Translations under genes and position numbers: made by a program | Notes under the pieces: model-generated | What the model was told of the DNA's origin: nothing | Databases searched by the model: none | What the model saw: the letters and a program-made list of their open reading frames with translations, nothing else | IMG/VR virus record: IMGVR_UViG_2728369185_000003 | Reading direction: 5' to 3' (one strand) | DNA length: 12,972 nucleotides | From: a virus | Taxonomy: Duplodnaviria; Heunggongvirae; Uroviricota; Caudoviricetes | Part shown: positions 1 through 12,972 of the stretch, one piece after another | How positions within the stretch are numbered: position 1 is the first letter of the stretch | Layout of the letters: every line of letters begins with the position of its first letter

Positions 1-736
1 TGAAGGCGATGTATGCAGCGACGATTGAAAGTGAACTTGATACCGAAAAGGCCTTTGAATATATCGCCGGTGCGCCGCAGGGGCAGAAGGATAATCCGCT
101 TATTAATATTCTGGATAAGTTCTCCACCTGGTATGACACGAATAGCGTGACGCTGGGCGGTGTCAAAATTCCGCACCTTTTCCCCGGTGATGATCTGAAA
201 CTTCAGACCGCGCAGGATTCAGACAATGGATTTTCGGCGCTTGAACAGGCGCTGCTGCGGTATATCGCCGCCGGTCTTGGCGTTTCCTACGAACAGTTGT
301 CCCGTGNNNNNNNNNNNNNNNNNNNNNNNNNNNNNNNNNNNNNNNNNNNNNNNNNNNNNNNNNNNNNNNNNNNNNNNNNNNNNNNNNNNNNNNNNNNNNN
401 NNNNNNNNNNNNNNNNNNNNNNNNNNGTTTGATTTTTATCAGGCGCGATCAGCCTGGTCACGGGCTGAGTGGATTGGAGCCGGAAGAATGGCCATTGACG
501 GGCTCAAGGAGGTTCAGGAATCAGTGATGCGCATTGAGGCCGGACTGAGCACGTATGAGAAAGAGCTGGCGCTGATGGGCGAGGATTATCAGGACATTTT
601 CCGCCAGCAGGTCAGGGAATCTGCAGAGCGGGAAAAAGCCGGACTCTCACGTCCGGTGTGGATAGCGCAGGCGTATCAGCAGCAGATAGCGGAGAGTCGC
701 AGGCCGGAAGAGGAGACAACACCACGTGAGACGTAA
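1..736 (+). CDS. B: Portal protein, 3' portion (5'-partial; interrupted by a 120-nt N-run at 307..426)
   Basis: Frame-0 ORF runs from the window edge to 306; after the N-run the reading continues in a different frame (ORF 488..736, ending PRET-stop at 734..736). Residues such as ESVMRIEAGLSTYEKE and QQVRES match my recollection of the C-terminus of lambda gpB. Position immediately upstream of the C protease gene fits lambda order. The frame change across the gap means the N-run length is not exact. Confidence 0.8.
307..426. other. Assembly gap (120 N) inside portal gene
   Basis: Run of N; portal reading frame differs before and after it. Confidence 0.95.
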
Positions 737-2233
737 TCTTTCACACATTATTGCAGCAGCATTCAATGAACCGCTGCTTCTGGAGCCCGCCTATGCGCGG
801 GTTTTCTTTTGCGCGCTGGGGCGCGAGATGGGGGCAGCAAGTCTTTCGGTACCGCAACAGCAGGTACAGCTTGATGCTCCCGGGATGCTGGCTGAAACGG
901 ACGAGTACATGGCCGGAGGTAAACGACCGGCCCGTGTTTACCGGGTGGTGAACGGTATTGCGGTACTGCCGGTGACCGGCACGCTGGTGCACCGGCTGGG
1001 GGGGATGCGGCCATTTTCCGGAATGACTGGCTATGACGGCATTGTCGCCTGTCTTCAGCAGGCAATGGCAGATAGCCAGGTGCGGGGCATACTGCTGGAC
1101 ATTGACAGTCCGGGCGGGCAGGCCGCCGGCGCGTTTGACTGCGCTGACATGATTTACCGCCTCCGGCAGCAGAAGCCGGTCTGGGCACTGTGTAATGACA
1201 CGGCCTGTTCTGCGGCCATGCTGCTGGCGTCGGCCTGCTCCCGACGGCTGGTTACCCAGACATCCCGTATCGGTTCCATTGGCGTGATGATGAGCCATGT
1301 CAGCTATGCCGGTCATCTGGCGCAGGCCGGTGTGGATATCACGCNNNNNNNNNNNNNNNNNNNNNNNNNNNNNNNNNNNNNNNNNNNNNNNNNNNNNNNN
1401 NNNNNNNNNNNNNNNNNNNNNNNNNNNNNNNNNNNNNNNNNNNNNNNNNNNNNNNNNNNNNNNNNNNNNNNNTTACCGGTCTGTCTGTTGATGCAGTCAC
1501 GGGAACAGAGGCCGCTGTTTTTGAAGGTCAGTCCGGCATTGAGGCCGGGCTGGCGGATGAATTAATCAATGCGTCGGATGCCATCAGTGTGATGGCCACG
1601 GCGCTGAACAGTAATGTCAGAGGAGGCACTATGCCGCAATTAACTGCAACGGAAGCCGCCGTGCAGGAGAACCAGCGAGTGATGGGGATCCTGACATGCC
1701 AGGAAGCGAAAGGACGTGAACAGCTTGCCACGATGCTGGCAGGACAACAGGGCATGAGCGTTGAACAGGCCCGGGCGATTCTGGCCGCGGCGGCACCGCA
1801 GCAGCCGGTGGCATCCACGCAGAGTGAAGCCGATCGCATTATGGTGTGTGAAGAAGCGAACGGTCGTGAACAACTGGCGGCAACGCTGGCGGCGATGCCG
1901 GAGATGACGGTGGAAAAAGCCCGCCCGATCCTGGCGGCTGCACCACTGGCGGATGCCGGGCCCTCGCTTCGTGATCAGATCATGGCCCTGGATGAGGCAA
2001 AAGGGGCAGAAGCGCAGGCTGAAAAACTGGCGGCCTGCCCGGGAATGACCGTGGAGAACGCCCGGGCTGTGCTGGCTGCGGGATCAGGTAAGGCCGAACC
2101 GGTCTCTGCATCCACAACCGCCCTGTTTGAACATTTCATGGCGAATCATTCACCGGCAGCGGTGCGGGGTGGCGTGTCACAGACGTCAGCAGACGGTGAT
2201 GCGGACGTGAAAATGCTCATGGCCATGCCATGA
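726..2233 (+). CDS. C: Head maturation protease / scaffold, S49 (ClpP/SppA-like) family, gpC-like; interrupted by a 128-nt N-run at 1345..1472
   Basis: GTG start at 726 overlaps the portal stop by 11 nt. N-terminal part (AAFNEPLLLEPAYARVFFCAL, GIAVLPVTGTLV, GILLDIDSPGG, CSAAMLLASA, RLVTQTSRIGSIGVMM) closely resembles lambda gpC as I recall it. After the gap the protein continues in frame 2 (from 1475, TGLSVDAVTGTEAAVFEGQSGIEAGLADELINASDAISVM) into ORF 1589..2233. The 726..1565 track ORF tail after the gap is a wrong-frame artefact. Confidence 0.85.
1345..1472. other. Assembly gap (128 N) inside C gene
   Basis: Run of N; C reading frame is 0 before and 2 after. About 43 codons of the protease domain are missing, judged against my recollection of lambda gpC. 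Confidence 0.95.
1631..2233 (+). CDS. nu3: Nu3-like internal scaffolding protein, in-frame C-terminal product of C
   Basis: In-frame ATG at 1631 preceded by AGGAGG at 1621..1626. In lambda the Nu3 scaffold is translated from an internal start in the C frame. The product is Ala-rich and carries three tandem motif copies. Exact start is unverified; ATG 1589 is an alternative. Confidence 0.55.
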   Translation: MPQLTATEAAVQENQRVMGILTCQEAKGREQLATMLAGQQGMSVEQARAILAAAAPQQPVASTQSEADRIMVCEEANGREQLAATLAAMPEMTVEKARPILAAAPLADAGPSLRDQIMALDEAKGAEAQAEKLAACPGMTVENARAVLAAGSGKAEPVSASTTALFEHFMANHSPAAVRGGVSQTSADGDADVKMLMAMP

Positions 2234-2269
2234 AGTCAGTGCTGACCATCAATAGGAGGTTTTTACAAT

Positions 2270-2617
2270 ATGGTGACGAAAACCATCACTGAACAGCGTG
2301 CGGAAGTACGTATTTTTGCCGGTAATGATCCGGCTCATACCGCCACAGGCAGCAGCGGGATTTCTTCTGCAACACCGGCTCTGACGCCCCTGATGCTGGA
2401 TGAAGCCACCGGGAAACTGGTGGTCTGGGATGGACAGAAAGCCGGTAGTGCGGTTGGCATACTGGTACTGCCGCTTGAAGGCACAGAGACGGTGCTGACC
2501 TATTACAAGTCGGGGACCTTTGCGACGGAGGCAATCCGCTGGCCTGACAGTGTGGATGAACACAAAAAGGCAAATGCCTTTGCCGGCACAGCCCTGAGTC
2601 ACGCGGCTCTGCCGTAA
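2270..2617 (+). CDS. D: Head decoration protein gpD-like
   Basis: 115-aa ORF with AGGAGG RBS upstream. Motifs NDPAHTAT, TPLMLD, KLVVWDG, AVGIL, YYKSGTF and AFAGTA match lambda gpD as I recall it. Sits between C and E. Confidence 0.9.
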   Translation: MVTKTITEQRAEVRIFAGNDPAHTATGSSGISSATPALTPLMLDEATGKLVVWDGQKAGSAVGILVLPLEGTETVLTYYKSGTFATEAIRWPDSVDEHKKANAFAGTALSHAALP

Positions 2618-2674
2618 CACGTTATCAGGCCACCATGGTGACCTGACTGATTTCTGAATGAAAGGAACTGATTT

Positions 2675-3709
2675 ATGGGATTGTTTACGACCCGCCAGTT
2701 ACTCGGTTATACCGAACAAAAAGTGAAATTCCGTGCGCTGTTTCTGGAGCTGTTTTTCCGCCGTACGGTGAATTTCCACACCGAAGAGGTGATGCTGGAC
2801 AAAATTACCGGAAAAACGCCGGTGGCGGCCTATGTCTCCCCGATCGTTGAAGGAAAAGTGCTTCGCCATCGCGGTGGTGAAACCCGCGTGTTACGTCCGG
2901 GCTACGTCAAGCCGAAACACGAATTTAATTACCAGCAGGCGGTTGAGCGCCTTCCTGGTGAAGNNNNNNNNNNGGCTCAGCTGAACGACCCGGCCTACCG
3001 TCGTCTGCGTATCATTACCGATAACCTCAAACAGGAAGAGCACGCCATTGTCCAGGTGGAAGAAATGCAGGCGGTGAATGCCGTGCTGTATGGCAAATAC
3101 ACCATGGAAGGGGATCAGTTTGATACTGTCGAGGTGGATTTCGGGCGCTCTGAAGGAAATAACATTGAGCAGGCTGACGGTAAAAAATGGTCTGAGCAGG
3201 ACCGTGATACGTTTGATCCGACGCATGATATTGACCTCTACTGCGATCAGGCCAGCGGCCTTGTGAATATCGCCATTATGGACGGTACGGTCTGGCGTCT
3301 GCTGAATGGCTTTAAGCTGTTCCGCGAAAAACTGGATACCCGTCGCGGCTCAAATTCACAACTCGAAACGGCAGTGAAAGATCTGGGCGCAGTGGTGTCC
3401 TTCAAGGGGTATTACGGCGATCTGGCCATTGTGGTGGCGAAAACGTCTTATGTGGCAGAGGACGGTACCGAAAAACGTTATCTGCCGGAGGGCATGCTGG
3501 TGTTGGGGAATACGGCGGCAGAGGGGATTCGTTGCTATGGTGCCATTAAGGATGCACAGGCGTTGTCTGAAGGAGTGGTGGCTTCTTCCCGTTACCCGAA
3601 ACACTGGCTGACCGTGGGCGATCCGTCCTGTGAATTCACCATGACGCAGTCCGCTCCGCTGATGGTGCTGCCGGATCCGGATGAGTTTGTGGTGGTACAG
3701 GTGAAATAA
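2675..3709 (+). CDS. E: Major capsid protein gpE-like (contains a 10-nt N-run at 2964..2973, frame preserved)
   Basis: 344-aa ORF. Strings YVSPIV, PGYVKPKHE, DPAYRR, VEEMQAVNAVLYGKYTMEG, LDTRRGSNS.LETAVKDLG, RYPKHW and EFTMTQSAPLM.LPDPDEF match lambda gpE. Confidence 0.95.
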   Translation: MGLFTTRQLLGYTEQKVKFRALFLELFFRRTVNFHTEEVMLDKITGKTPVAAYVSPIVEGKVLRHRGGETRVLRPGYVKPKHEFNYQQAVERLPGEXXXXAQLNDPAYRRLRIITDNLKQEEHAIVQVEEMQAVNAVLYGKYTMEGDQFDTVEVDFGRSEGNNIEQADGKKWSEQDRDTFDPTHDIDLYCDQASGLVNIAIMDGTVWRLLNGFKLFREKLDTRRGSNSQLETAVKDLGAVVSFKGYYGDLAIVVAKTSYVAEDGTEKRYLPEGMLVLGNTAAEGIRCYGAIKDAQALSEGVVASSRYPKHWLTVGDPSCEFTMTQSAPLMVLPDPDEFVVVQVK

Positions 3710-3716
3710 TCCGTGA

Positions 3717-3746
3717 GCGGGGGCGAAATGCCCCCGTGTCTTTTTT
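3717..3746 (+). terminator. Intrinsic-terminator-like hairpin just downstream of the major capsid gene
   Basis: GCGGGGGC (3717..3724), loop GAAAT, GCCCCCGT (3730..3737; 7 Watson-Crick pairs plus a G-U closing pair), followed by a T6 run at 3741..3746. Lies between the E stop (3709) and the FI start (3761). Confidence 0.4.
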
Positions 3747-3760
3747 CACAGGAGGCTGAG

Positions 3761-4144
3761 ATGGCAACAAAAGAAGAAAATCTGAATCGTCTTCGTCAAC
3801 TGGCTGACCTGCTGGGGCGCGAGGCGGATATGTCGGGGAGTGCTGCGGATATTGCTCAACGTGTGTCTGAGTGGGAAGAGGAGCTTGCTGTTTCCCCGGA
3901 GGGCATTATGCACTCTGATGAGAGCGGGGCTGATCAAAATCACACAGACGATGGTGAGCAGTTGAACAACACGGATGCTCCGGATGATGTTAAAGCCGTC
4001 CGGGTACGGAAGTGCCTGCAAGTAATGGGGTATTGCCCGGAGACAGGTCGTCCCGTTGAGCTGGCGTTACGGGGTATGCGTGTTCTGGTGCCATCATCAC
4101 TGGCAACGGCCATGATACAGCACGGAACGGCTGAATATGCGTGA
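3761..4144 (+). CDS. FI: FI-like DNA-packaging / head completion protein; lambda-like N-terminus, divergent C-terminal domain
   Basis: ATG at 3761 preceded by GGAGG at 3751..3755. The track ORF starts at an upstream GTG (3713) that lies inside the hairpin and is less likely. N-terminal helix (MATKEENLNRLRQLADLLGRE) resembles lambda FI, followed by an acidic linker. Stop overlaps the FII start. Confidence 0.7.
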   Translation: MATKEENLNRLRQLADLLGREADMSGSAADIAQRVSEWEEELAVSPEGIMHSDESGADQNHTDDGEQLNNTDAPDDVKAVRVRKCLQVMGYCPETGRPVELALRGMRVLVPSSLATAMIQHGTAEYA

Positions 4145-4490
4145 TTTTCAGAATGCCTTTGATGCTGCCCTCGCCGGGGTAGACAGTACGATCGTTGAAG
4201 TGATGGGGCTCTGTGCGCAGTTCACCTCGGGGGCACAGTGTGGCAGCGAAGTTCAGGGGGTTTTTGATGATCCGGAGTCGCTGGGGTTTGCCGGTGGCGG
4301 GGTCCGTATTGAAGGAAGCAGCCCGTCATTATTTGTGCGGACGGATACGGTTCGTGCCGTGCGGCGTGGTGACACGCTGACCATTAATGGTGAGATATTC
4401 TGGGTGGATCGTGTTTCTCCGGATGACGGGGGCAGCTGTTATCTCTGGCTCAACCGTGGTCAACCACCCGCAGTTAACCGGCGACGATAA
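4137..4490 (+). CDS. FII: Head-tail joining protein gpFII-like
   Basis: 117-aa ORF. GVFDDPE, GSSPSLFVRTD, RRGDTLTI, FWVDRVSPDDGGSC.LWL and PPAVNRRR match lambda FII. Confidence 0.9.
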   Translation: MRDFQNAFDAALAGVDSTIVEVMGLCAQFTSGAQCGSEVQGVFDDPESLGFAGGGVRIEGSSPSLFVRTDTVRAVRRGDTLTINGEIFWVDRVSPDDGGSCYLWLNRGQPPAVNRRR

Positions 4491-4505
4491 ACGCAGGGTG
4501 AAATT

Positions 4506-5039
4506 ATGGCGATAAAAGGGCTTGATCAGGCGATTGACAATCTGAGCCGGGTTCGTAAAAACGCCATTCCGGCGGCTTCAGCAATGGCCATTAACCGCGT
4601 GGCCACAACGGCGATTAATCAGTCTTCATCACAGGTTGCCCGGGAGACAAAGGTTCGCCGGAAACTGGTTAAGGAACGGTCCAGACTGAAACGGGCGACG
4701 GTCAGAAATCCGAATGCCAGAATTATCGTTAACCGCGGTGATCTCCCTGTGATTAAGCTGGGGATCAGGATGCTGGGGCGTCGCCCGAACAGCATACTTA
4801 AAGCCGGTCAGCATCGGTATCAGCGGGCATTTATTCAGAGATTAAAAAATGGTCGCTGGCATGTCATGCAGCGTGTGGCCGGGAAAAACCGTTACCCCAT
4901 TGATGTGGTGAAAATCCCGATGGCGGCCCCACTGAAACAGGCATTTGATGAGAATGTTGACCGTATCCGGCGTGAACGCCTGCCTAAAGAACTGGCATAC
5001 GCGCTGAAACAACAACTGAGGATTGCAATAAAACGATGA
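4506..5039 (+). CDS. Z: Tail completion protein gpZ-like
   Basis: 177-aa ORF. MAIKGL, SQVARETKVRRKLVKER.RLKRATV, NRGDLPVIKLG, LKNGRWHVMQRVAGKNRYPIDVVKIPMA and RIRRERLPKEL match lambda Z. Confidence 0.9.
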   Translation: MAIKGLDQAIDNLSRVRKNAIPAASAMAINRVATTAINQSSSQVARETKVRRKLVKERSRLKRATVRNPNARIIVNRGDLPVIKLGIRMLGRRPNSILKAGQHRYQRAFIQRLKNGRWHVMQRVAGKNRYPIDVVKIPMAAPLKQAFDENVDRIRRERLPKELAYALKQQLRIAIKR

Positions 5040-5431
5040 AACACACTGACATTCGTGCCGCAGTGCTGGATGCACTCGAGCAGCATGAACACGGGGCGAC
5101 GCTGTTTGATGGTCGCCCCGTTGTTTTTGACGAAGAGGATTTTCCTGCGATCGCGGTTTATCTGACGGATGCAGAGTATACCGGTGAAGAGCTGGATGCA
5201 GATACCTGGCGGGCCACGCTGCATATTGAGGTGTTTTTACCGGCACAGGTACCGGATTCAGAGCTTGATCAGTGGATGGAAAGCCGGATTTACCCGGCGA
5301 TGACCGCGATCCCGGCACTGGCAGGACTGATTACCACGATGGTTACGCAGGGCTATGAGTATCGTCGTGATGACGATATGGCGTTATGGAGTTCTGCAGA
5401 TCTGACTTATTCCATTACATACGAGATGTGA
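5036..5431 (+). CDS. U: Tail terminator protein gpU-like
   Basis: 131-aa ORF with ATGA overlap to [54 protein letters not shown] and [14 protein letters not shown] match lambda U. Confidence 0.92.
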
Positions 5432-5438
5432 GGACGAT

Positions 5439-6191
5439 ATGGCAACACCAAATCCCCTTGAGCCGGTAAAAGGTGCCGGTACCACTCTGTGGGTTTACAA
5501 CGGCAAGGGTGATGCTTATGCAAACCCGTTGTCAGACGATGACTGGCAGCGACTGGCTAAGGTGAAGGATCTGACGCCGGGCGAGATGACGGCAGAATCC
5601 TACGATGATAACTACCTGGATGATGAAGACGCGGACTGGACCGCGACCGGGCAGGGGCAGAAATCTGCAGGTGATACCAGTTTTACGCTGGCCTGGAAAC
5701 CGGGAGAGGAAGGCCAGAAAGGGCTTATAGGCTGGTTTGAAAGCGGCGATGTCCGGGCCTATAAAATCCGTTTTCCGAATGGCACGGTGGATGTGTTTCG
5801 TGGCTGGGTCAGCAGTATCGGTAAGGCCGTGACGGCGAAAGAAGTGATCACCCGCACGGTGAAAGTCACTAACGTGGGTAAACCTTCTGTAGCGGAAGAA
5901 CGCAGCAAAATTACGCCGGTCAGTGCGATTAAGGTGACGCCGACATCCGGTACGGTGGCAAAAGGGAAAACAACCACCCTGACGGTTTCTTTTGAGCCGG
6001 AAAGTGCAACCGACAAGACGTTCAGAGCGGTTTCCGCCGATCCGTCGAAAGCCACCATTAGTGTGAAAGATATGACAATTACGGTAAACGGCGTGGCGAC
6101 AGGTAAGGTGCAGATCCCTGTGGTGAGCGGAAATGGTCAGTTCGCCGCAGTGGCTGAAGTCACCGTTACTGAAGCGGGCGCTGCAGGGTAA
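5439..6191 (+). CDS. V: Major tail tube protein gpV-like with C-terminal Ig-like (Big_2-type) domain
   Basis: 250-aa [75 protein letters not shown] and [40 protein letters not shown] match lambda V. The C-terminal part ([26 protein letters not shown]) is the Ig-like region. Confidence 0.95.
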
Positions 6192-6204
6192 ACGGAGGTA
6201 ATAC

Positions 6205-6636
6205 ATGTTTCTGAAAACAGAACAATTTGAATATAACGGTGTGTCTGTCACGCTTTCCGAATTGTCTGCGCTGCAGCGTATCGAGCATCTTGCCCTCCTG
6301 AAACGGCGTGCAGAACAGGCAGAATCCTGCGGCAACCTGCAGGTAAGCGTGGAAGAGCTCGTCAGAACCGGCGCGTTTCTGGTGGCGATGTCCCTGTGGC
6401 ATAACCATCCACAGAAAACGCAGTCACCGTCAATGAATGAGGCCGTGATGAAGATAGAGCAGGAAGTGCTCACCACCTGGCCTGCCGATGCCATTGCCCG
6501 GGCGGAAGACGTGGTGTTGTGCCTGTCCGGGATGATCGAAGCTGTTCGTCCGGATACTGATATTACTGAAGTGGCGAAAAATAACACGCTGACTGATGAT
6601 GATTTTTCTGCGGGAAAGTCTTCGACGGCGAGCTGA
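6205..6636 (+). CDS. G: Tail assembly chaperone gpG-like
   Basis: 143-aa ORF with GGAGG RBS. MFLKTE, VTLSELSALQRIEHLAL, RTGAFLVAMSLWHNHPQKTQ.PSMNEAV and QEVLTTWP match lambda G. Confidence 0.92.
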   Translation: MFLKTEQFEYNGVSVTLSELSALQRIEHLALLKRRAEQAESCGNLQVSVEELVRTGAFLVAMSLWHNHPQKTQSPSMNEAVMKIEQEVLTTWPADAIARAEDVVLCLSGMIEAVRPDTDITEVAKNNTLTDDDFSAGKSSTAS

Positions 6637-7076
6637 ACTTTGCCCTCAGACTGGCGCGTGAGATGGGGAGACCCGACTGGCGCGCCATGCTTGCCGGGAT
6701 GACATCCACCGAATATGCCGACTGGCACCGTTTTTACCGCACGCATTATTTTCAGGATACCCAGCTGGATATGCATTTTTCCGGGCTGACGTACGCTGTA
6801 CTCAGCCTGTTTTTTTGCGATCCGGATATGCATCCCTCTGATTTCAGTCTGCTTGTCCCCCGGCATGAGGAAGAGCAGGTGGAGAGGCCGGATGAGGACA
6901 AAATGCTGATGCAGAAAGCGGCAGGACTTGCCGGAGGCGTCCGGTTCGGTGGGGACGGAGGGCGCGATATTTTATCGTCTGCGGATGTGGCGGATGTCAT
7001 GGTGGATGATGCCGCATTAATGATGGCTTCAGCGGGGATTCCGGGAGGTGTGAGATATGTCCCAGCCGGTTGGTGA
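6205..7076 (+). CDS. T: G-T fusion tail assembly chaperone made by -1 frameshift; T portion about 6617..7076
   Basis: The -1 frame after the slippery site reads LNFALRLAREMGRPDWRAMLAGM.STEYADWHRFY.THYF and GLTY.VLSLFF.DPDMHP, matching lambda gpT. T has no independent start near the shift point. Stop at 7074..7076. Confidence 0.85.
6612..6618 (+). promoter_or_regulatory. -1 programmed ribosomal frameshift slippery heptamer G GGA AAG (G to G-T)
   Basis: GGGAAAG sits in the X XXY YYZ register relative to the G frame (codons gga 6613..6615, aag 6616..6618), near the 3' end of G. The -1 frame continues without a stop into ORF 6663..7076. This is the same heptamer and geometry as the lambda G-T frameshift. 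Confidence 0.85.
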
Positions 7077-10000
7077 TCTTGTTATTGACCTGAGTCTGGA
7101 TGCTGTCCGTTTCGATGAGCAGATGAGCCGGGTAAGGCGTCATTTTTCAGGTCTGGATACCGACGCCAGAAAAACCGCCAGTGCTGTTGAACAGGGCCTG
7201 AGCCGCCAGGCGCTGGCTGCACAAAAAGCCGGGATTTCCGTCGGGCAGTATAAAGCGGCCATGCGAACCCTGCCCGCACAGTTTACGGATATCGCCACGC
7301 AGCTTGCCGGTGGTCAGAATCCCTGGTTGATCCTGCTGCAACAGGGCGGTCAGGTGAAGGACTCCTTCGGCGGGATGATCCCCATGTTCAGGGGGCTTGC
7401 CGGTGCGATCACCCTGCCGATGGTCGGGGTCACCTCGCTGGCGGTGGCGACAGGTGCGCTGGCGTACGCCTGGTACCAGGGCGACGCCACGCTTTCAGAA
7501 TTTAATAAAACGCTGGTCCTTTCCGGCAATCAGGCCGGACTGACTGCCGATCGTATGCTGACGCTCTCAAGAGCCGGGCAGGCAGCAGGGCTGACGTTTA
7601 ACCAGGCGAGAGAGTCACTGGCAGCCCTGGTGAATGCCGGTGTGCGTGGTGGTGAACAGTTTGATGCCATCAACCAGAGTGTCGCGCGTTTTGCGTCTGC
7701 ATCCGGTGTGGAGGTGGATAAAGTCGCTGAAGCCTTCGGGAAGCTGACCACTGACCCGACGTCGGGACTGATGGCGATGGCGCGCCAGTTCCGTAACGTG
7801 ACGGCAGAGCAGATTGCGTATGTTGCACAGCTGCAGCGTTCCGGAGACGAGGCCGGGGCATTGCAGGCGGCGAACGATATCGCCACGAAAGGCTTTGATG
7901 AGCAGACCCGTCGCCTGAAAGAAAACATGGGAACACTGGAGACCTGGGCGGATAAAACAGGGAAGGCATTCAAATCGATGTGGGATGCCATTCTGGATAT
8001 CGGTCGTCCGGAATCCTCAGCGGATATGCTCGCCAGTGCGCAGAAGGCATTTGATGAGGCGGATAAAAAATGGCAGTGGTACCAGAGCCGGAGCCAGCGC
8101 CGGGGAAAGACCTCCTCTTTTCGTGCGAACCTTCAGGGGGCATGGGATGACCGGGAAAATGCCCGTCTGGGTCTGGCAGCGGCCACGCTGCAGTCGGATA
8201 TGGAAAAAGCCGGTGAACTGGCGGCAAGGGACAGGGCTGAGCGTGAGTCGTCACAGCTGAAGTATACCGGAGAGGCGCAGAAGGCGTATGAGCGCCTGCA
8301 GACGCCGCTGGATAAATATACCGCCCGTCAGAAAGAGCTGAATAAGGCCCTGAAAGACGGAAAAATCCTGCAGGCGGATTACAACACGCTGATGGCGTCG
8401 GCAAAAAAGGATTATGAATCGACGCTGAAAAAGCCGTCAGGTGTGAAGGTGTCTGCCGGTGAGCGCCAGGAAGACCGGGCGCATGCAGCCCTGCTGGCGC
8501 TTGAAACCGAGCTCAGGACGCTGGAAAAACACAGCGGTGTGAATGAGAAAATCAGCCAGCAGCGCCGGGATTTATGGGAAGCGGAAAGTCAGTATGTGGT
8601 CCTGAAAGAGGCCGCCACGAAACGGCAGTTATCTGAGCAGGAAAAATCCCTGCTGGCTCATGAGAAAGAGACGCTGGAGTACAAACGCCAGCTGGCTGAG
8701 CTGGGAGACAAGATTGAACACCAGAAGCGGCTGAATGAGCTGGCACAGCAGGCGGCGCGGTTTGAACAGCAGCAAAGCGCGAAGCAGGCGGCAATCAGCG
8801 CAAAAGCCCGCGGCCTCACCGACCGTCAGGCGCAGCGGGAGTCGGAAGAGCAGCGCCTTCGTGAGGTGTACGGTGATAATCCGGCTGCGCTGGCGAAGGC
8901 CACATCGGCACTGAAGAACACCTGGTCTGCGGAGGAGCAGCTTCGTGGAAGCTGGATGGCCGGGATGAAGTCCGGCTGGGGAGAGTGGGCGGAAAGTGCG
9001 ACGGACAGTTTTTCGCAGGTTAAAAGTGTGGCCACGCAGACCTTTGACGGTATTGCACAGAATATGGCGGCGATGCTGACCGGCAGCGAACAGAACTGGC
9101 GGGGATTCACCCGTTCCGTGCTGTCCATGATGACAGAAATTCTGCTTAAGCAGGCAATGGTGGGGATTGTCGGGANNNNNNNNNNTCTGGCGCTGAATAA
9201 CGTCATGTCAGAGCAGAAAAAGACCTGGGCGGCTGAAGACCTGCTTCGCGGGAACTGGATGGCAGGCCTGAAGTCCGGCTGGAGTGAGTGGGAAGAGAGT
9301 GCCACGGACAGTATGTCGCAGGTTAAAAGTGCTGCCACGCAGACCTTTGATGGTATTGCGCAGAATATGGCGGCGATGCTGACCGGCAGTGAACAGAACT
9401 GGCGCAGCTTCACCCGTTCCGTGCTGTCCATGATGACAGAAATTCTGCTTAAGCAGGCAATGGTGGGGATTGTCGGGAGTATCGGCAGCGCCATTGGCGG
9501 GGCTGTTGGTGGCGGCGCATCCGCGTCAGGCGGTACAGCCATTCAGGCCGCTGCGGCGAAATTCCATTTTGCAACCGGAGGATTTACGGGAACCGGCGGC
9601 AAATATGAGCCAGCGGGGATTGTTCACCGTGGTGAATTTGTCTTCACAAAGGAGGCAACCAGCCGGATTGGCGTGGGGAATCTCTATCGGCTGATGCGCG
9701 GCTATGCCACCGGTGGTTATGTCGGTACACCGGGCAGTCTGGCTGACAGCCGGTCGCAGGCGTCCGGGACGTTTGAGCAGAATAACCATGTGGTGATTAA
9801 CAACGACGGCACGANNNNNNNNNNAAATCTCTACCGGCTGATGCGCGGCTATGCCACCGGCGGTTATGTCGGTGGCACCGGAAGTCCGGCGCAAATGCGG
9901 CGTTCAGAGGGTATCAGGTTTGAGCAGAACAACAACGTGGTGATTCAGAACGACGGTACGAATGGTCTGCCAGGTCCACAGATGATGAAGGCGGTGTATG

Positions 10001-10080
10001 ACATGGCCCGCAAGGGTGCCCGTGATGAAATCCAGGCACAGATGCGCGATGGTGGTCTGTTCTCCGGAGGTGGACGATGA
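7057..10080 (+). CDS. H: Tail tape measure protein gpH-like; the ORF contains two 10-N runs, each flanked by diverged tandem copies of the same segment
   Basis: 1007-aa apparent ORF, start overlapping the T end. N-terminal and central motifs (VGDLV.DLSLDA.RFDEQM, GISVGQYKAAMR.LPAQFTD.ATQLAGGQ.PWLILLQQGGQVKDSFGGMIPMFRGLAGAITLPMVG, SGNQAGLTADRML, VARF.SASGVEVDKVAEAFGKLTTDPTSGL) and the Gly-rich C-terminal region match lambda H. Apparent length is inflated by about 130 aa of duplicated sequence. Confidence 0.9.
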   Translation: MSQPVGDLVIDLSLDAVRFDEQMSRVRRHFSGLDTDARKTASAVEQGLSRQALAAQKAGISVGQYKAAMRTLPAQFTDIATQLAGGQNPWLILLQQGGQVKDSFGGMIPMFRGLAGAITLPMVGVTSLAVATGALAYAWYQGDATLSEFNKTLVLSGNQAGLTADRMLTLSRAGQAAGLTFNQARESLAALVNAGVRGGEQFDAINQSVARFASASGVEVDKVAEAFGKLTTDPTSGLMAMARQFRNVTAEQIAYVAQLQRSGDEAGALQAANDIATKGFDEQTRRLKENMGTLETWADKTGKAFKSMWDAILDIGRPESSADMLASAQKAFDEADKKWQWYQSRSQRRGKTSSFRANLQGAWDDRENARLGLAAATLQSDMEKAGELAARDRAERESSQLKYTGEAQKAYERLQTPLDKYTARQKELNKALKDGKILQADYNTLMASAKKDYESTLKKPSGVKVSAGERQEDRAHAALLALETELRTLEKHSGVNEKISQQRRDLWEAESQYVVLKEAATKRQLSEQEKSLLAHEKETLEYKRQLAELGDKIEHQKRLNELAQQAARFEQQQSAKQAAISAKARGLTDRQAQRESEEQRLREVYGDNPAALAKATSALKNTWSAEEQLRGSWMAGMKSGWGEWAESATDSFSQVKSVATQTFDGIAQNMAAMLTGSEQNWRGFTRSVLSMMTEILLKQAMVGIVGXXXXLALNNVMSEQKKTWAAEDLLRGNWMAGLKSGWSEWEESATDSMSQVKSAATQTFDGIAQNMAAMLTGSEQNWRSFTRSVLSMMTEILLKQAMVGIVGSIGSAIGGAVGGGASASGGTAIQAAAAKFHFATGGFTGTGGKYEPAGIVHRGEFVFTKEATSRIGVGNLYRLMRGYATGGYVGTPGSLADSRSQASGTFEQNNHVVINNDGTXXXXNLYRLMRGYATGGYVGGTGSPAQMRRSEGIRFEQNNNVVIQNDGTNGLPGPQMMKAVYDMARKGARDEIQAQMRDGGLFSGGGR
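9176..9185. other. 10-N gap inside H at a duplication junction
   Basis: Run of exactly 10 N flanked by diverged copies of the same H segment (about 8884..9175 and 9186..9477). Confidence 0.95.
9815..9824. other. 10-N gap inside H at a second duplication junction
   Basis: Run of exactly 10 N flanked by diverged copies of the same H segment (9679..9814 and 9825..9960). Confidence 0.95.
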
Positions 10081-10406
10081 AAACCTTCCGCTGGAAAGTG
10101 AAACCCGGGATGGATGTGACATCGGCTCCTTCCGTCAGGGAGGTGCGCTTTGGTGATGGCTATTCCCAGCGTGCGCCTGCCGGGCTGAACGCTGACCTGA
10201 AAACGTACAGCGTGACGCTGTCTGTCTCCCGTGAGGAGGCCACGGCGCTGGAGTCGTTTCTGGCTGAGCACGGGGGCTGGAAGGCCTTTCTGTGGACGCC
10301 GCCTTATGGTTACAGGCAGATAAAGGTGACCTGCGCAAAATGGTCGTCGCGGGTCAGTATGCTGCGTGTTGAGTTCAGCGCAGAGTTTGAACAGGTGGTG
10401 AACTGA
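10077..10406 (+). CDS. M: Tail tip protein gpM-like
   Basis: 109-aa ORF with ATGA overlap to H. MKTFRWKVKPGMDV, VRFGDGYSQRAPAGLNA.LKTYSVTLSV.REEAT.LESFL.EHGGWK.FLWTPPY and RQIKVTCAKWSSRVSMLRVEFSAEFEQVVN are near-identical to lambda M as I recall it. Confidence 0.95.
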   Translation: MKTFRWKVKPGMDVTSAPSVREVRFGDGYSQRAPAGLNADLKTYSVTLSVSREEATALESFLAEHGGWKAFLWTPPYGYRQIKVTCAKWSSRVSMLRVEFSAEFEQVVN

Positions 10407-11107
10407 TGCAGGATATCCGGCAGGAAACATTGAATGAATGCACCCGTGCGGAGCAGTCGGCCAGCGTGGTGCTCTGGGAAATCGATCTGACAGAGGTCGG
10501 TGGAGAACGTTATTTTTTCTGTAATGAGCAGAACGAAAAAGGTGAGCCGGTCACCTGGCAGGGGCGACAGTATCAGCCGTATCCCATTCAGGGGAGTAGT
10601 TTTGAACTGAATGGCAAAGGCACCAGTACGCGCCCCACGCTGACGGTTTCTAACCTGTACGGTATGGTCACCGGGATGGTGGAAGATCTGCAGAGTCTGG
10701 TCGGCGGAACGGTGGTCAGGCGTAAGGTTTACGCCCGTTTTCTGGATGCGGTGAACTTCGTCAACGGAAACAGCGACGCCGATCCGGAGCAGGAGGTGAT
10801 CAGCCGCTGGCGCATCGAGCAGTGCAGCGAACTGAGTGCGGTCAGTGCCTCCTTTGTACTGTCCACACCGACGGAAACGGATGGTGCCGTTTTTCCGGGG
10901 CGCATCATGCTGGCTAATACCTGCACCTGGACCTATCGCGGTGATGAGTGCGGTTATCACGGTCCGGCGGTCGCGGATGAATATGATCAGCCGACTTCCG
11001 ATATCACGAAGGATAAATGCAGCAAATGCCTGAGCGGCTGTAAGTTTCGCAATAACGTCGGCAACTNNNNNNNNNNNNNNNNNNNNNNNNNNNNNNNNAT
11101 CCCATGA
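10406..11107 (+). CDS. L: Tail tip protein gpL-like with C-terminal Cys cluster; 3' end obscured by a 32-nt N-run at 11067..11098
   Basis: Start overlaps the M stop (TGATG). The sequence up to the gap is near-identical to my recollection of lambda L (MQDIRQETLNECTRAEQSASVVLWEIDLTEVGGERYFFCNEQNEKGEPVTWQGRQYQPYPIQGS, CTWTYRGDECGY, CSKCLSGCKFRNNVGN). The exact stop is uncertain because of the gap. Confidence 0.88.
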   Translation: MQDIRQETLNECTRAEQSASVVLWEIDLTEVGGERYFFCNEQNEKGEPVTWQGRQYQPYPIQGSSFELNGKGTSTRPTLTVSNLYGMVTGMVEDLQSLVGGTVVRRKVYARFLDAVNFVNGNSDADPEQEVISRWRIEQCSELSAVSASFVLSTPTETDGAVFPGRIMLANTCTWTYRGDECGYHGPAVADEYDQPTSDITKDKCSKCLSGCKFRNNVGNXXXXXXXXXXXIP

Positions 11108-11847
11108 CAGAGACAGAATCAGCGATTCTGGCGCATGCCCGGCGATGTGCGCCAGCGGAGTCGTGCGGCTTCGTGGTGAGAGCGCCGGAGGGGGAAAGAT
11201 ATTTTCCCTGCGTGAATATCTCCGGTGAGCCGGAGGCGTATTTCCGGATGGCTCCGGAGGACTGGCTGCAGGCAGAGATGCAGGGTGAGATTGTGGCGCT
11301 GGTCCACAGTCATCCCGGTGGTCTGCCCTGGCTGAGTGAGGCCGACCGGCGGCTGCAGGTGCAGAGTGATTTGCCGTGGTGGCTGGTCTGCCGGGGGGCG
11401 ATTCATAAGTTCCGCTGTGTGCCGCATCTCACCGGGCGGCGCTTTGAGCACGGGGTGACGGACTGTTACACGCTGTTCCGGGACGCTTACCATCTGGCGG
11501 GGATTGAGATGCCGGACTTTCATCGTGAGGATGACTGGTGGCGTAACGGCCAGAATCTCTATCTTGATAATCTGGAGGCCACAGGGCTGTATCAGGTGCC
11601 GTTGTCAGCGGCGCAGCCGGGCGATGTGCTGCTGTGCTGCTTTGGTTCATCGGTGCCGAATCATGCCGCTATTTACTGTGGTGACGGCGAGCTGCTGCAC
11701 CATATTCCTGAACAACTGAGTAAACGAGAGAGGTATACCGACAAATGGCAGCGACGCACACACTCCCTCTGGCGTCACCGGGCATGGCGCGCATCTGCCT
11801 TTACGGGGATTTACAACGATTTGGCCGCCGCATCGACCTTCGTGTGA
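11104..11847 (+). CDS. K: Tail tip assembly protein gpK-like, two domains: N-terminal JAMM/MPN-type metalloprotease motif and C-terminal NlpC/P60-like cysteine peptidase fold
   Basis: Full ORF is 247 aa from the ATG overlapping the L stop. An internal in-frame ATG at 11248 (GGAGG at 11232..11236) would give 199 aa. HSHPGGLPWLSEAD forms an HxH-x7-S-x2-D JAMM motif; an upstream Glu (AESCG) exists only in the long form. C-terminal Cys (VTDCYTLF) and His (NHAAIY) suit NlpC/P60. The 3' end overlaps I by 103 nt. Confidence 0.85.
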   Translation: MTETESAILAHARRCAPAESCGFVVRAPEGERYFPCVNISGEPEAYFRMAPEDWLQAEMQGEIVALVHSHPGGLPWLSEADRRLQVQSDLPWWLVCRGAIHKFRCVPHLTGRRFEHGVTDCYTLFRDAYHLAGIEMPDFHREDDWWRNGQNLYLDNLEATGLYQVPLSAAQPGDVLLCCFGSSVPNHAAIYCGDGELLHHIPEQLSKRERYTDKWQRRTHSLWRHRAWRASAFTGIYNDLAAASTFV

Positions 11848-12416
11848 AAACGGGGGCTGAAGCCATCCGCGCACTGGCCACACAGCTCCCGGTGTTTCGT
11901 CAGAAACTGAGCGACGGCTGGTATCAGGTACGGATTGCCGGGCGGGACGTCAGCACGTCCGGGTTAACGGCGCAGTTACATGAGACTCTGCCTGATGGCG
12001 CTGTGATTCATATTGTTCCCAGAGTCGCCGGGGCCAAGTCAGGTGGCGTATTCCAGATTGTCCTGGGGGCTGCCGCCATTGCCGGATCATTCTTTACCGC
12101 CGGAGCCACCCTTGCAGCATGGGGGGCAGCCATTGGGGCCGGTGGTATGACCGGCATCCTGTTTTCTCTCGGTGCCAGTATGGTGCTCGGTGGTGTGGCG
12201 CAGATGCTGGCACCGAAAGCCAGAACTCCCCGTACACAGACAACGGATAACGGCAAACAGAACACCTATTTCTCCTCACTGGATAACATGGTTGCCCAGG
12301 GCAATGTTCTGCCGGTTCTGTACGGTGAAATGCGCGTGGGGTCACGCGTGGTTTCTCAGGAGATCAGCACGGCAGACGAAGGGGATGGTGGTCAGGTTGT
12401 GGTGATTGGTCGCTGA
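11745..12416 (+). CDS. I: Tail tip assembly protein gpI-like
   Basis: 223-aa ORF that is, to my recollection, essentially identical to lambda gpI (MAATHTLPLASPGMARICLYGDLQRFGRRIDLRVKTGAEAIRALATQLP). Includes the Gly/Ala-rich hydrophobic stretch GGVFQIVLGAAAIAGSFFTAGATLAAWGAAIGAGGMTGILFSLGASMVLGGVAQMLAP. Confidence 0.95.
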   Translation: MAATHTLPLASPGMARICLYGDLQRFGRRIDLRVKTGAEAIRALATQLPVFRQKLSDGWYQVRIAGRDVSTSGLTAQLHETLPDGAVIHIVPRVAGAKSGGVFQIVLGAAAIAGSFFTAGATLAAWGAAIGAGGMTGILFSLGASMVLGGVAQMLAPKARTPRTQTTDNGKQNTYFSSLDNMVAQGNVLPVLYGEMRVGSRVVSQEISTADEGDGGQVVVIGR

Positions 12417-12434
12417 TGCAAAATGTTTTATGTG

Positions 12435-12461
12435 AAACCGCCTCCGGGCGGTTTTATCGTT
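12435..12461 (+). terminator. Stem-loop with U-rich tail in the I-J intergenic region
   Basis: AAACCGCC (12435..12442), loop TCCG, GGCGGTTT (12447..12454) form a perfect 8-bp stem, followed by TATCGTTTAT. Lies between the I stop (12416) and the J start (12477). Confidence 0.35.
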
Positions 12462-12476
12462 TATGGAGCATGAGGA

Positions 12477-12972
12477 ATGGGTAAAGGCAGCAGTAAGGGG
12501 CATACCCCGCGCGAAGCGAAGGACAACCTGAAATCATCCCAGATGCTGAGCGTGATAGACGCCATCAGCGAAGGGCCGGTTGAAGGTCCGGTGGATGGAT
12601 TAAAAAGCGTGCTGCTGAACAGTACGCCGGTGCTGGACAGTGAGGGGAATACCAATATATTCGGCGTCACGGTGGTGTTCCGGGCCGGTGAGCAGGAGCA
12701 GACTCCGCCGGAGGGATTTGAATCCTCCGGCTCCGAGACGGTGCTCGGTACAGAAGTGAAATATGACACGCCGATCACCCGGACCATCACGTCGGCAAAC
12801 ATTGACCGTCTGCGTTTTACTTTCGGCGTGCAGGCACTGGTGGAAACCACCTCAAAGGGGGACAGGAATCCATCGGAAGTCCGCCTGCTGGTTCAGATTC
12901 AACGTAACGGTGGCTGGGTGACGGAAAAAGACATCACCATTAAGGGCAAAACCACCTCGCAGTATCTGGCCT
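12477..12972 (+). CDS. J: Central tail fibre / host specificity protein gpJ-like, N-terminal portion (3'-partial, runs off the window)
   Basis: ATG at 12477 with GGAG 8 nt upstream. MGKGSSKGHTPREAKDNLKSSQMLSVIDAISEGPVEGPVDGLKSVLLNSTPVLD matches the lambda J N-terminus. The ORF is open to the window end. Confidence 0.92.
   Translation, partial: MGKGSSKGHTPREAKDNLKSSQMLSVIDAISEGPVEGPVDGLKSVLLNSTPVLDSEGNTNIFGVTVVFRAGEQEQTPPEGFESSGSETVLGTEVKYDTPITRTITSANIDRLRFTFGVQALVETTSKGDRNPSEVRLLVQIQRNGGWVTEKDITIKGKTTSQYLA

What the first reader, a model, noticed from the sequence alone, without database searches (positions are those of the whole stretch)
8884..9960. Tape measure gene H has two diverged tandem duplications, each abutting a 10-N run: chimeric scaffold or genuinely lengthened tape measure
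Protein segment TWSAEEQLRGSWMAGMKSGWGEWAESATDSFSQVKSVATQTFDGIAQNMAAMLTGSEQNWRGFTRSVLSMMTEILLKQAMVGIVG (nt about 8884..9175) recurs after the 10-N run as LALNNVMSEQKKTWAAEDLLRGNWMAGLKSGWSEWEESATDSMSQVKSAATQTFDGIAQNMAAMLTGSEQNWRSFTRSVLSMMTEILLKQAMVGIVG (9186..9477). The 3' halves are nearly identical at nucleotide level and the 5' halves are clearly diverged. Likewise NLYRLMRGYATGGYVGTPGSLADSRSQASGTFEQNNHVVINNDGT (9679..9814) recurs after the second 10-N run as NLYRLMRGYATGGYVGGTGSPAQMRRSEGIRFEQNNNVVIQNDGT (9825..9960). The block between the two gaps (9186..9814) looks like the lambda-type allele, while the flanks look like a different lambdoid allele. Most parsimonious reading: three contigs from two co-resident lambdoid prophages were scaffolded with unmerged overlapping ends, so the real H is about 130 aa shorter than the 1007-aa ORF. 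Alternative: real in-frame duplications, which would lengthen the tail because tape measure length sets tail length. Both gaps happen to preserve frame, which does not settle it.
Basis: partly seen in the sequence, partly recalled or inferred. Interest (0 to 1): 0.55.

Follow-up and report, generated by a model that had tools for sequence, protein, structure and literature searches.

The report
False duplications in a mis-scaffolded tape-measure gene
The two "duplications" in this phage tail tape-measure gene are an assembly artefact: pieces of two different, related prophages of the same E. coli strain were strung together across placeholder gaps, so the real gene is an ordinary 853-857 codons long.

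Summary
Window 8883-9175 recurs at 9186-9478 (offset 303 nt, 248/293 identical) and 9678-9814 recurs at 9825-9961 (offset 147 nt, 102/137 identical). Each pair is split by a 10-N run, giving a 1007-codon ORF.

It is not a biological duplication. Everything left of the first gap is 100% identical to one lambdoid prophage of E. coli UTI89 (P1, 1.42 Mb). Everything right of the second gap is 100% identical to a second UTI89 prophage (P2, 1.27 Mb, 146 kb away). The 629-nt middle contig is an exact two-parent chimera with no private variant: 46 informative sites are all P2, 83 nt are shared, then 39 sites are all P1.

All six other contig ends stop exactly 70 nt after the last P1/P2-discriminating base, the mark of a k=71 de Bruijn graph. 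The 10-N run is a floor value, used also for a true 4-nt gap; here it hides overlaps of 293 and 137 nt.

In 5,426 complete E. coli genomes and 146 phages, both copies always map to one 293-nt stretch. The 120 best protein homologues are 837-862 aa.

The true H is 150 codons shorter (857 or 853 aa).

The parts
7057..10080 (+). Apparent 1007-codon tape-measure (lambda H-type) ORF. It is an artefactual concatenation of three contigs.
   Evidence: ORF list and translation with 8 X. Pfam finds TMP_2 once and Tape_meas_lam_C twice, against once in each UTI89 H.
2974..9175 (+). Contig A, the prophage P1 allele. It carries capsid to tail genes and H codons 1-706. Its last 70 nt (9106-9175) are shared with P2.
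   Evidence: 6202/6202 identical to UTI89 1.42-Mb prophage (L001), only 77-87% to P2. Longest exact suffix shared with P2 is 70 nt.
8883..9175 (+). Copy 1a of the first apparent duplication (P1 allele).
   Evidence: 100% to P1 H nt 1827-2119, 88.6% to P2.
9176..9185 (.). 10-N placeholder that hides a 293-nt overlap (negative gap) between contigs A and B.
   Evidence: A ends at L001 10119, and the start of B is equivalent to L001 9827. The same 10-N value is used at 2964-2973 for a true 4-nt gap.
9186..9814 (+). Contig B, an exact chimera. 9186-9408 is the P2 allele, 9409-9491 is identical in P1 and P2, and 9492-9814 is the P1 allele. It contains copy 1b (9186-9478) and copy 2a (9678-9814).
   Evidence: In the three-way alignment 46 sites equal P2 only, then 39 sites equal P1 only, with 0 private variants. 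The exact prefix in P2 is 306 nt and the exact suffix in P1 is at least 400 nt. The best match in 5,426 complete genomes is only 98.9%.
9815..9824 (.). 10-N placeholder that hides a 137-nt overlap between contigs B and C.
   Evidence: The end of B is equivalent to L002 12137, and C starts at L002 12001.
9825..11066 (+). Contig C, the prophage P2 allele. It carries the H 3' end (copy 2b = 9825-9961), M and most of L.
   Evidence: 1242/1242 identical to the UTI89 1.27-Mb prophage (L002), 94% to P1.
11099..12972 (+). Last contig of the scaffold, also the P2 allele (K, I, start of J).
   Evidence: 1874/1874 identical to L002, 87-94% to L001. It ends 70 nt after the last P1/P2 difference.
1..2963 (+). 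Three further P1-type contigs (1-306, 427-1344, 1473-2963), separated by N runs that replace stretches shared by P1 and P2.
   Evidence: 100%, 100% and 99.6% to L001. The six mismatches in 1473-2963 are all P2 alleles. Each contig ends with a 70-nt suffix shared with P2.

Best explanation
The window is one short-read scaffold from an E. coli strain of the UTI89/ST95 type. That strain type carries two related lambda-like prophages, P1 and P2.

Shown:
- A de Bruijn-graph assembler with k = 71 broke the sequence wherever the two prophages share at least 70 nt.
- The scaffold then chained the allele-specific contigs, writing N runs for the shared stretches with a floor of 10 N.
- Inside the tape-measure gene H it chained a P1 contig (A), a 629-nt contig that crosses from the P2 allele into the P1 allele through an 83-nt identical segment (B), and a P2 contig (C).
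- A overlaps B by 293 nt and B overlaps C by 137 nt. The overlapping ends are different alleles, so they were not merged and were written one after the other with 10 N between them.
- The outcome is two false duplications and a 1007-codon ORF.

Inferred:
- The real genome most likely holds two ordinary H genes. P1 H would be A plus the right part of B and its continuation (857 aa). P2 H would be unseen P2 upstream sequence, the left part of B, and C (853 aa).
- The assembler is Velvet-like. This rests on my recollection of the Velvet manual and on the asymmetry of contig starts and ends.
- Contig B is an assembler chimera rather than a real recombinant.
For: 1. Source of each piece.
- Segments 1-306, 427-1344 and 2974-9175 are 100% identical to UTI89 prophage L001, and 1473-2963 is 99.6% identical.
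- Segments 9825-11066 and 11099-12972 are 100% identical to UTI89 prophage L002.
- Segment 9186-9814 is only about 95% identical to either.
- The two prophages lie 146 kb apart in UTI89, and both are present at 100% in many of the same complete genomes.

2. Contig B is a perfect two-parent chimera: 46 consecutive informative sites are P2, then 39 are P1, with no private variant. No complete genome holds it above 98.9%.

3. Alignment-free test. For 6 of 6 other contigs the longest exact suffix shared with the other prophage is exactly 70 nt. The first contig's prefix is also 70 nt (alignment-based version).

4. Gap sizes.
- N runs of 120, 128, 10 and 32 stand for true distances of 166, 126, 4 and 38 nt. 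So N lengths are estimates with a floor of 10.
- The two H gaps stand for -293 and -137 nt.
- The gaps of 126, 4 and 38 nt equal the P1/P2-shared stretch minus 70 nt.

5. Allele mixing elsewhere in the scaffold. All six mismatches of contig 1473-2963 to P1 are P2 alleles, and no complete genome matches that contig above 99.6%.

6. Tandem test.
- Copy 1a plus copy 1b (586 nt), and the copy-2 region (430 nt), always map as two pieces onto a single 293-nt stretch.
- This holds in 3,711 and 3,657 complete E. coli genomes and in 146 phage records.
- Best mean identity is 94.6% and 93.3%, and none reaches 99%.

7. The 120 best homologues among 5.8 billion proteins are 837-862 aa. The best local alignment covers only 70% of the ORF, which is up to the first gap.

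8. Both junctions of both 'duplications' coincide exactly with N runs. This is the hallmark reported for false heterotype duplications (PMC9516828).
Against: - No reads are available, so depth and pair or long-read spanning cannot be checked.
- The two ends of contig B do not follow the 70-nt fork rule and are unexplained.
- Contig C starts 29 nt after a site where UTI89 P1 and P2 already differ. The source strain's P2 must therefore differ slightly from UTI89's, or the assembler trimmed the contig.
- Natural recombinants between the two alleles exist (ST95-32). The true connectivity could therefore be parental, or A could join to C.
- The source assembly was not found in the public gene index.
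Confidence: 0.95

Rival explanations
1. Genuine in-frame tandem duplications. The prophage would encode a roughly 1007-aa tape measure with a doubled Tape_meas_lam_C region and a doubled segment of the C-terminal fragment, possibly changing tail length or tip assembly.
For: The ORF stays open and in frame across both gaps. Tape-measure length is known to set tail length, at about 0.15 nm per residue (PMC5099701).
Against: - Each copy is 100% identical to the allele of a different prophage found in more than 100 related complete genomes.
- All four duplication boundaries fall exactly on contig ends or N runs.
- The contig ends carry the k=71 fork signature.
- No tandem arrangement occurs in 5,426 complete genomes or 146 phages.
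- No homologue longer than 862 aa is among the best 120.
- The duplicated parts lie at the hydrophobic/Gly-rich cleavage region and in the tip-bound C-terminal fragment of gpH, not in the ruler part (PMC12617516).
- Frame preservation has a 1/9 chance.
Confidence: 0.01
2. There is no duplication, but the scaffold's left-right join is real. The strain would carry a hybrid prophage, P1 up to the conserved segment of H and P2 from there on, made by recombination between its two prophages. Contig B would then be the real reciprocal or converted allele rather than an assembler chimera.
For: - Natural P1/P2 recombinants in H exist. ST95-32 H is P1 up to nt 2277 and P2-type for nt 2289-2550.
- Lambda H itself has the P2-left/P1-right combination, at 97.3% and 97.5%.
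- Read pairs through the shared segment could place B between A and C in this case too (inference).
Against: - No complete genome holds B at more than 98.9%.
- None holds the A-shared-C join followed by P2-type L, K and I. ST95-32 returns to P1 after H.
- Both recombinant products in one genome would require a reciprocal exchange between direct repeats 146 kb apart, which normally gives a deletion or a duplication instead (inference).
- The same scaffold shows allele mixing elsewhere.
Confidence: 0.1
3. Contig B comes from a third lambdoid prophage of the strain with a lambda-type H. The scaffold would then mix three prophages.
For: - B is 97.3-97.5% identical to lambda H over both halves.
- Thousands of genomes carry alleles 95-99% identical to B.
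- Some ST95 genomes have 3-4 H homologues.
- The odd ends of B could be forks against a third allele.
Against: - B has no private variant at all. It is 100% P2 on the left and 100% P1 on the right.
- No complete genome has it at 99% or more over its full length.
- UTI89, the closest genome found, has only two H homologues.
Confidence: 0.05

Closest known systems
False 'heterotype' duplications flanking assembly gaps (Ko et al. 2022, Genome Biol 23:205, PMC9516828)
   Same: Two diverged versions of one region are placed next to each other on a scaffold, separated by an assembly gap. This produces a false gain or lengthening of a gene.
   Different: In that work the two versions are haplotypes of a diploid vertebrate. 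Here they are paralogous alleles of two prophages in a haploid bacterium, and the middle contig is itself an allele chimera.
Phage lambda gpH tape measure (853 aa) and its prophage homologues WP_000082348.1 (857 aa) and WP_000840269.1 (853 aa) of E. coli UTI89
   Same: The gene is in the same position, after G/T and before M, L, K, I and J. It has the same Pfam domains. Contig A is 100% identical to WP_000082348.1's gene and contig C is 100% identical to WP_000840269.1's gene.
   Different: The window ORF has 150 extra codons, which are an artefact. No real homologue has them.
Engineered or natural in-frame tape-measure length variants (lambda H deletions, Katsura and Hendrix 1984, as cited in PMC5099701; tandem repeats in tape-measure proteins, PMC13585406)
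   Same: On paper the window shows an in-frame change of tape-measure length.
   Different: Real variants are contiguous sequence and affect the helical ruler part. Here the junctions are N runs and the copies are alleles from two loci.

Membership tests
Lambda-family tail tape measure protein (gpH type) | Pfam TMP_2 N-terminal domain plus the Tape_meas_lam_C domain | tested here: met
   TMP_2 E = 2.9e-69. Tape_meas_lam_C E = 4e-41, but in 2 stretches against 1 in each UTI89 H.
Lambda-family tail tape measure protein (gpH type) | Gene order V-G-T-H-M-L-K-I-J, with the G-T frameshift heptamer upstream | tested here: met
   The window is collinear with the annotated UTI89 and lambda regions. G GGA AAG lies at 6612, in phase with G.
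Lambda-family tail tape measure protein (gpH type) | Length about 850-860 aa in close relatives | tested here: not met
   The ORF as written is 1007 aa, and the 120 best homologues are 837-862 aa. The excess is explained by contig overlaps of 293 + 10 and 137 + 10 nt.
False (heterotype-like) duplication created by scaffolding | An assembly gap lies exactly between the two copies | tested here: met
   N runs at 9176-9185 and 9815-9824 sit exactly at both junctions.
False (heterotype-like) duplication created by scaffolding | The two copies are alternative alleles that exist at separate loci | tested here: met
   Copies 1a and 2a are 100% P1, and copies 1b and 2b are 100% P2. The two loci are 146 kb apart in UTI89.
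False (heterotype-like) duplication created by scaffolding | Contig ends carry an assembler signature at allele forks | tested here: met
   An exactly 70-nt shared suffix is found at 6 of 6 other contig ends. The ends of contig B are an exception.
False (heterotype-like) duplication created by scaffolding | Aberrant read depth and discordant read pairs across the gap | not testable with these tools
   No reads are available, and the source assembly was not found.
Genuine tandem in-frame duplication of a tape measure | Contiguous sequence across the duplication junction | tested here: not met
   Both junctions are N runs.
Genuine tandem in-frame duplication of a tape measure | The same arrangement is seen in independent closed genomes or phages | tested here: not met
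   Both copies always map onto one 293-nt stretch. This holds in 3,711 and 3,657 genomes and in 146 phages.

The most novel reading that the evidence does not exclude
The duplications are real. Unequal exchange between the two resident prophages would have produced a functional tape measure of about 1007 aa, with a doubled Tape_meas_lam_C/hydrophobic segment and a doubled part of the tip-bound C-terminal fragment. Both junctions would happen to fall in unsequenced 10-nt gaps.

A milder and more likely novel reading is that contig B, or the A-to-C join, is a real inter-prophage recombinant at the 83-nt conserved segment of H (probability about 0.1, of modest interest).
Probability: 0.01. Interest if true: 0.45.

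Novelty: not a real feature. Interest (0 to 1): 0.04.

Why it matters
It matters only as a caution.
- An automatic annotator would call a 1007-aa tape measure, and a reader might infer a longer phage tail or a gene-internal duplication. Neither exists.
- The scaffold also falsely joins two prophages that lie about 146 kb apart in related genomes.
- The contig-end test used here is a cheap, read-free way to recognise such artefacts in draft genomes with several related prophages. It asks whether each contig's exact suffix shared with the paralogous locus equals k-1.

Tried and rejected
- Exact look-up of the 1007-aa product in the public gene index found nothing, so the source assembly and its reads could not be identified.
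- I tested whether the strain's P2 allele could be 'B-left plus C'. The best complete genomes still differ at 3 sites (9492, 9562, 9648), so no closed genome confirms that exact merge.
- I tested whether ATCC 11775 is a closer relative than UTI89. It is not, being 99.0-99.97% against 100%.
- I looked for repeats near the two ends of contig B within the fetched loci that would explain where it stops, and found none.
- Two literature searches for a citable statement of the '10 N minimum gap' convention of Velvet failed. The floor of 10 N is instead shown from the window itself. Naming the assembler rests on my memory of the Velvet manual.
- The 444-aa antisense ORF at 5532-6866 has no Pfam match and was dropped.

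Full report
**Observation**

The window contains six N runs: 307-426, 1345-1472, 2964-2973, 9176-9185, 9815-9824 and 11067-11098. ORF 7057-10080 reads through two of them and gives 1007 codons, eight of them X.

- 8883-9175 recurs at 9186-9478, offset 303 nt, with 248/293 nt identical. The last 70 nt are identical and the first 30 nt are at 50%.
- 9678-9814 recurs at 9825-9961, offset 147 nt, with 102/137 nt identical.

Both offsets are multiples of three although each N run is 10 nt, which is why the frame survives. The chance of that is about 1/9 and it carries no weight. The excess is 150 codons. Pfam finds the Tape_meas_lam_C domain twice in this ORF and once in each real homologue.

**Where the pieces come from**

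- The part of H left of the first gap is 100% identical to 168 or so complete E. coli genomes of the UTI89/ST95 type.
- The part right of the second gap is 100% identical to many of the same genomes, but at a different chromosomal position.
- In UTI89 the first position is a lambdoid prophage at 1.41-1.43 Mb, called P1 here (locus L001). Its H is 857 aa, WP_000082348.1.
- The second position is a lambdoid prophage at 1.26-1.28 Mb next to sitABCD, called P2 here (locus L002). Its H is 853 aa, WP_000840269.1.

Blasting every N-free segment of the window against both loci gave:

| Segment | Identity to P1 | Identity to P2 |
|---|---|---|
| 1-306 | 100% | 96.1% |
| 427-1344 | 100% | 97.6% |
| 1473-2963 | 99.6% | 96.4% |
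| 2974-9175 | 100% | 77-87% |
| 9186-9814 | about 95% | about 95% |
| 9825-11066 | 94% | 100% |
| 11099-12972 | 87-94% | 100% |

So the scaffold changes prophage inside H.

**The middle contig**

- A three-way alignment shows that 9186-9814 has no variant of its own.
- Its first 46 informative sites (9186-9408) all carry the P2 base.
- The segment 9409-9491 is identical in P1 and P2.
- Its remaining 39 informative sites (9492-9814) all carry the P1 base.
- Its exact prefix in P2 is 306 nt and its exact suffix in P1 is at least 400 nt.
- No complete genome among 5,426 holds this contig at more than 98.9%, although each half occurs at 100% in over a hundred.

Copy 1a is therefore the P1 allele and copy 1b the P2 allele of one region. 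Copy 2a is the P1 allele and copy 2b the P2 allele of another.

This is because lambda H naturally combines a P2-like left part with a P1-like right part.

**Assembler signature**

- For six of six contigs other than the middle one, the longest exact suffix that also occurs in the other prophage is exactly 70 nt. The first contig's prefix is likewise 70 nt (alignment-based version).
- Four of the five internal contig starts outside contig B (427, 1473, 2974, 9825) lie exactly on a P1/P2-discriminating base.
- This is what a de Bruijn graph with k = 71 produces when two near-identical loci fork and merge. It also shows that the window is one whole scaffold.
- The N runs stand for the shared stretches. 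True distances in UTI89 are 166, 126, 4 and 38 nt where the scaffold has 120, 128, 10 and 32 N. For three of these, the shared stretch equals 70 nt plus the true gap.
- N lengths are therefore estimates with a floor of 10.
- At the two H gaps the true distances are -293 and -137 nt, also written as 10 N.
- From memory, the Velvet manual states that gaps under 10 bp are written as 10 N, and Velvet nodes lack their first k-1 bases. I could not find a citable source, so the name of the assembler is an inference.

**Further sign of allele mixing**

The only six mismatches of contig 1473-2963 to P1 are all P2 alleles, in two patches. No complete genome matches that contig above 99.6%.

**Is such a duplication seen anywhere?**

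- I concatenated copy 1a with copy 1b (586 nt), and the copy-2 region (430 nt), without the Ns and searched all complete E. coli genomes.
- In every record the two halves map as two pieces onto one and the same 293-nt stretch.
- The best mean identities are 94.6% and 93.3%, and no record reaches 99%.
- A real tandem would give about 100% over a stretch of 586 or 430 nt.
- The same holds for 146 phage records.
- Among 5.8 billion proteins the 120 best homologues are 837-862 aa, and the best local alignment covers 70% of the ORF, which is up to the first gap.

**Mechanism**

*Shown:*
- The ORF is a concatenation of a P1 contig, a P2-to-P1 crossover contig and a P2 contig.
- The overlapping but allelically different ends were left unmerged around floor-value gaps.

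*Inferred:*
- Read pairs from A fall in the P1-type right part of B.
- Read pairs from the P2-type left part of B fall in C.
- The scaffolder therefore chained A, B and C at negative distances.

This is the bacterial, paralogue-driven counterpart of the 'false heterotype duplications separated by an assembly gap' described for vertebrate assemblies (PMC9516828).

**What remains open**

1. The ends of contig B (9186 and 9814) do not follow the 70-nt rule, and nothing in the fetched loci explains them.
   - Possible causes are a third H allele, coverage breaks, or a local gap-fill assembly of mates recruited from A and from C.
   - B starts 492 nt upstream of the start of C and ends 336 nt downstream of the end of A, roughly one insert length.
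2. Contig C starts at the equivalent of 9678, although UTI89 P1 and P2 already differ at 9636 and 9648.
   - ATCC 11775 P2 is P1-like at 9636, so the source strain's P2 may be P1-like at both sites.
3. The true connectivity is uncertain because natural P1/P2 recombinants in H exist.
   - In strain ST95-32 the P1 prophage carries a P2-type patch over H nt 2289-2550 and then returns to P1.
   - I therefore cannot exclude that the A-to-C join or contig B is a real recombinant (about 0.1).
   - No closed genome supports it, and neither case would involve a duplication.

**Biology, had it been real**

- Tape-measure length sets tail length at about 0.15 nm per residue (PMC5099701).
- The duplicated segments map to gpH residues of about 609-706 and 774-818.
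- The first segment ends at the hydrophobic stretch just before the Gly-rich cleavage region. The second lies in the C-terminal fragment that binds gpI in the tip (PMC12617516).
- A real duplication would therefore more likely disturb tip assembly than simply lengthen the tail.

**Verdict**

This is an assembly and scaffolding artefact, not a real feature. Interest is very low.

Noticed in passing
window 1-12972, switch point inside 9176-9824: The whole scaffold is chimeric. 1-9175 is the UTI89-type prophage at 1.42 Mb and 9825-12972 is the prophage at 1.27 Mb next to sitABCD, 146 kb away in UTI89. Any synteny or prophage-typing inference from this scaffold would be wrong.
   Followed up: yes
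window 306, 1344, 2963, 9175, 11066, 12972 (contig ends) and window 1: Every contig end lies exactly 70 nt after the last base that distinguishes the two prophages. This implies k = 71 and shows that the window is a complete scaffold. The N runs replace the stretches shared by the two prophages.
   Followed up: yes
window 1744, 1817, 1845, 2255, 2264, 2269: Six isolated P2-allele bases sit in an otherwise P1 contig (protease/scaffold gene region). No complete genome has this combination; the best match is 99.6%. This is probably bubble collapse by the assembler, or less likely small gene-conversion patches.
   Followed up: partly
L006 (NZ_CP043950.1, strain ST95-32) 11745-12006, which is H nt 2289-2550: A closed genome has a natural P2-type patch at the 3' end of an otherwise P1 tape-measure gene (WP_001596712.1, 857 aa). 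Co-resident prophages therefore do exchange sequence here.
   Followed up: partly
window 9409-9491; lambda NC_001416 H nt 2038-2121: This 83-nt segment is identical in P1, P2 and lambda. It encodes FTRSVLSMMTEILLKQAMVGIVGSIGS, just before the Gly-rich cleavage region. It is the switch point of allele mosaicism in lambda H, in contig B and in the scaffold.
   Followed up: partly
window 6612-6618: The G GGA AAG heptamer lies in phase with the G ORF (6205-6636). This is the conserved lambda G-T -1 frameshift site, followed by the T reading frame (6663-7076).
   Followed up: no
window 5532-6866, minus strand: A 444-aa antisense ORF lies over the V and G genes. It has no Pfam match and is probably spurious.
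   Followed up: partly
window 9186 and 9814 (ends of contig B); 9825 (start of contig C): The ends of contig B do not obey the 70-nt rule. Contig C starts 29 nt after a UTI89 P1/P2 difference. This hints at a third allele, at strain-specific P2 variants, or at a gap-filling step.
   Followed up: partly
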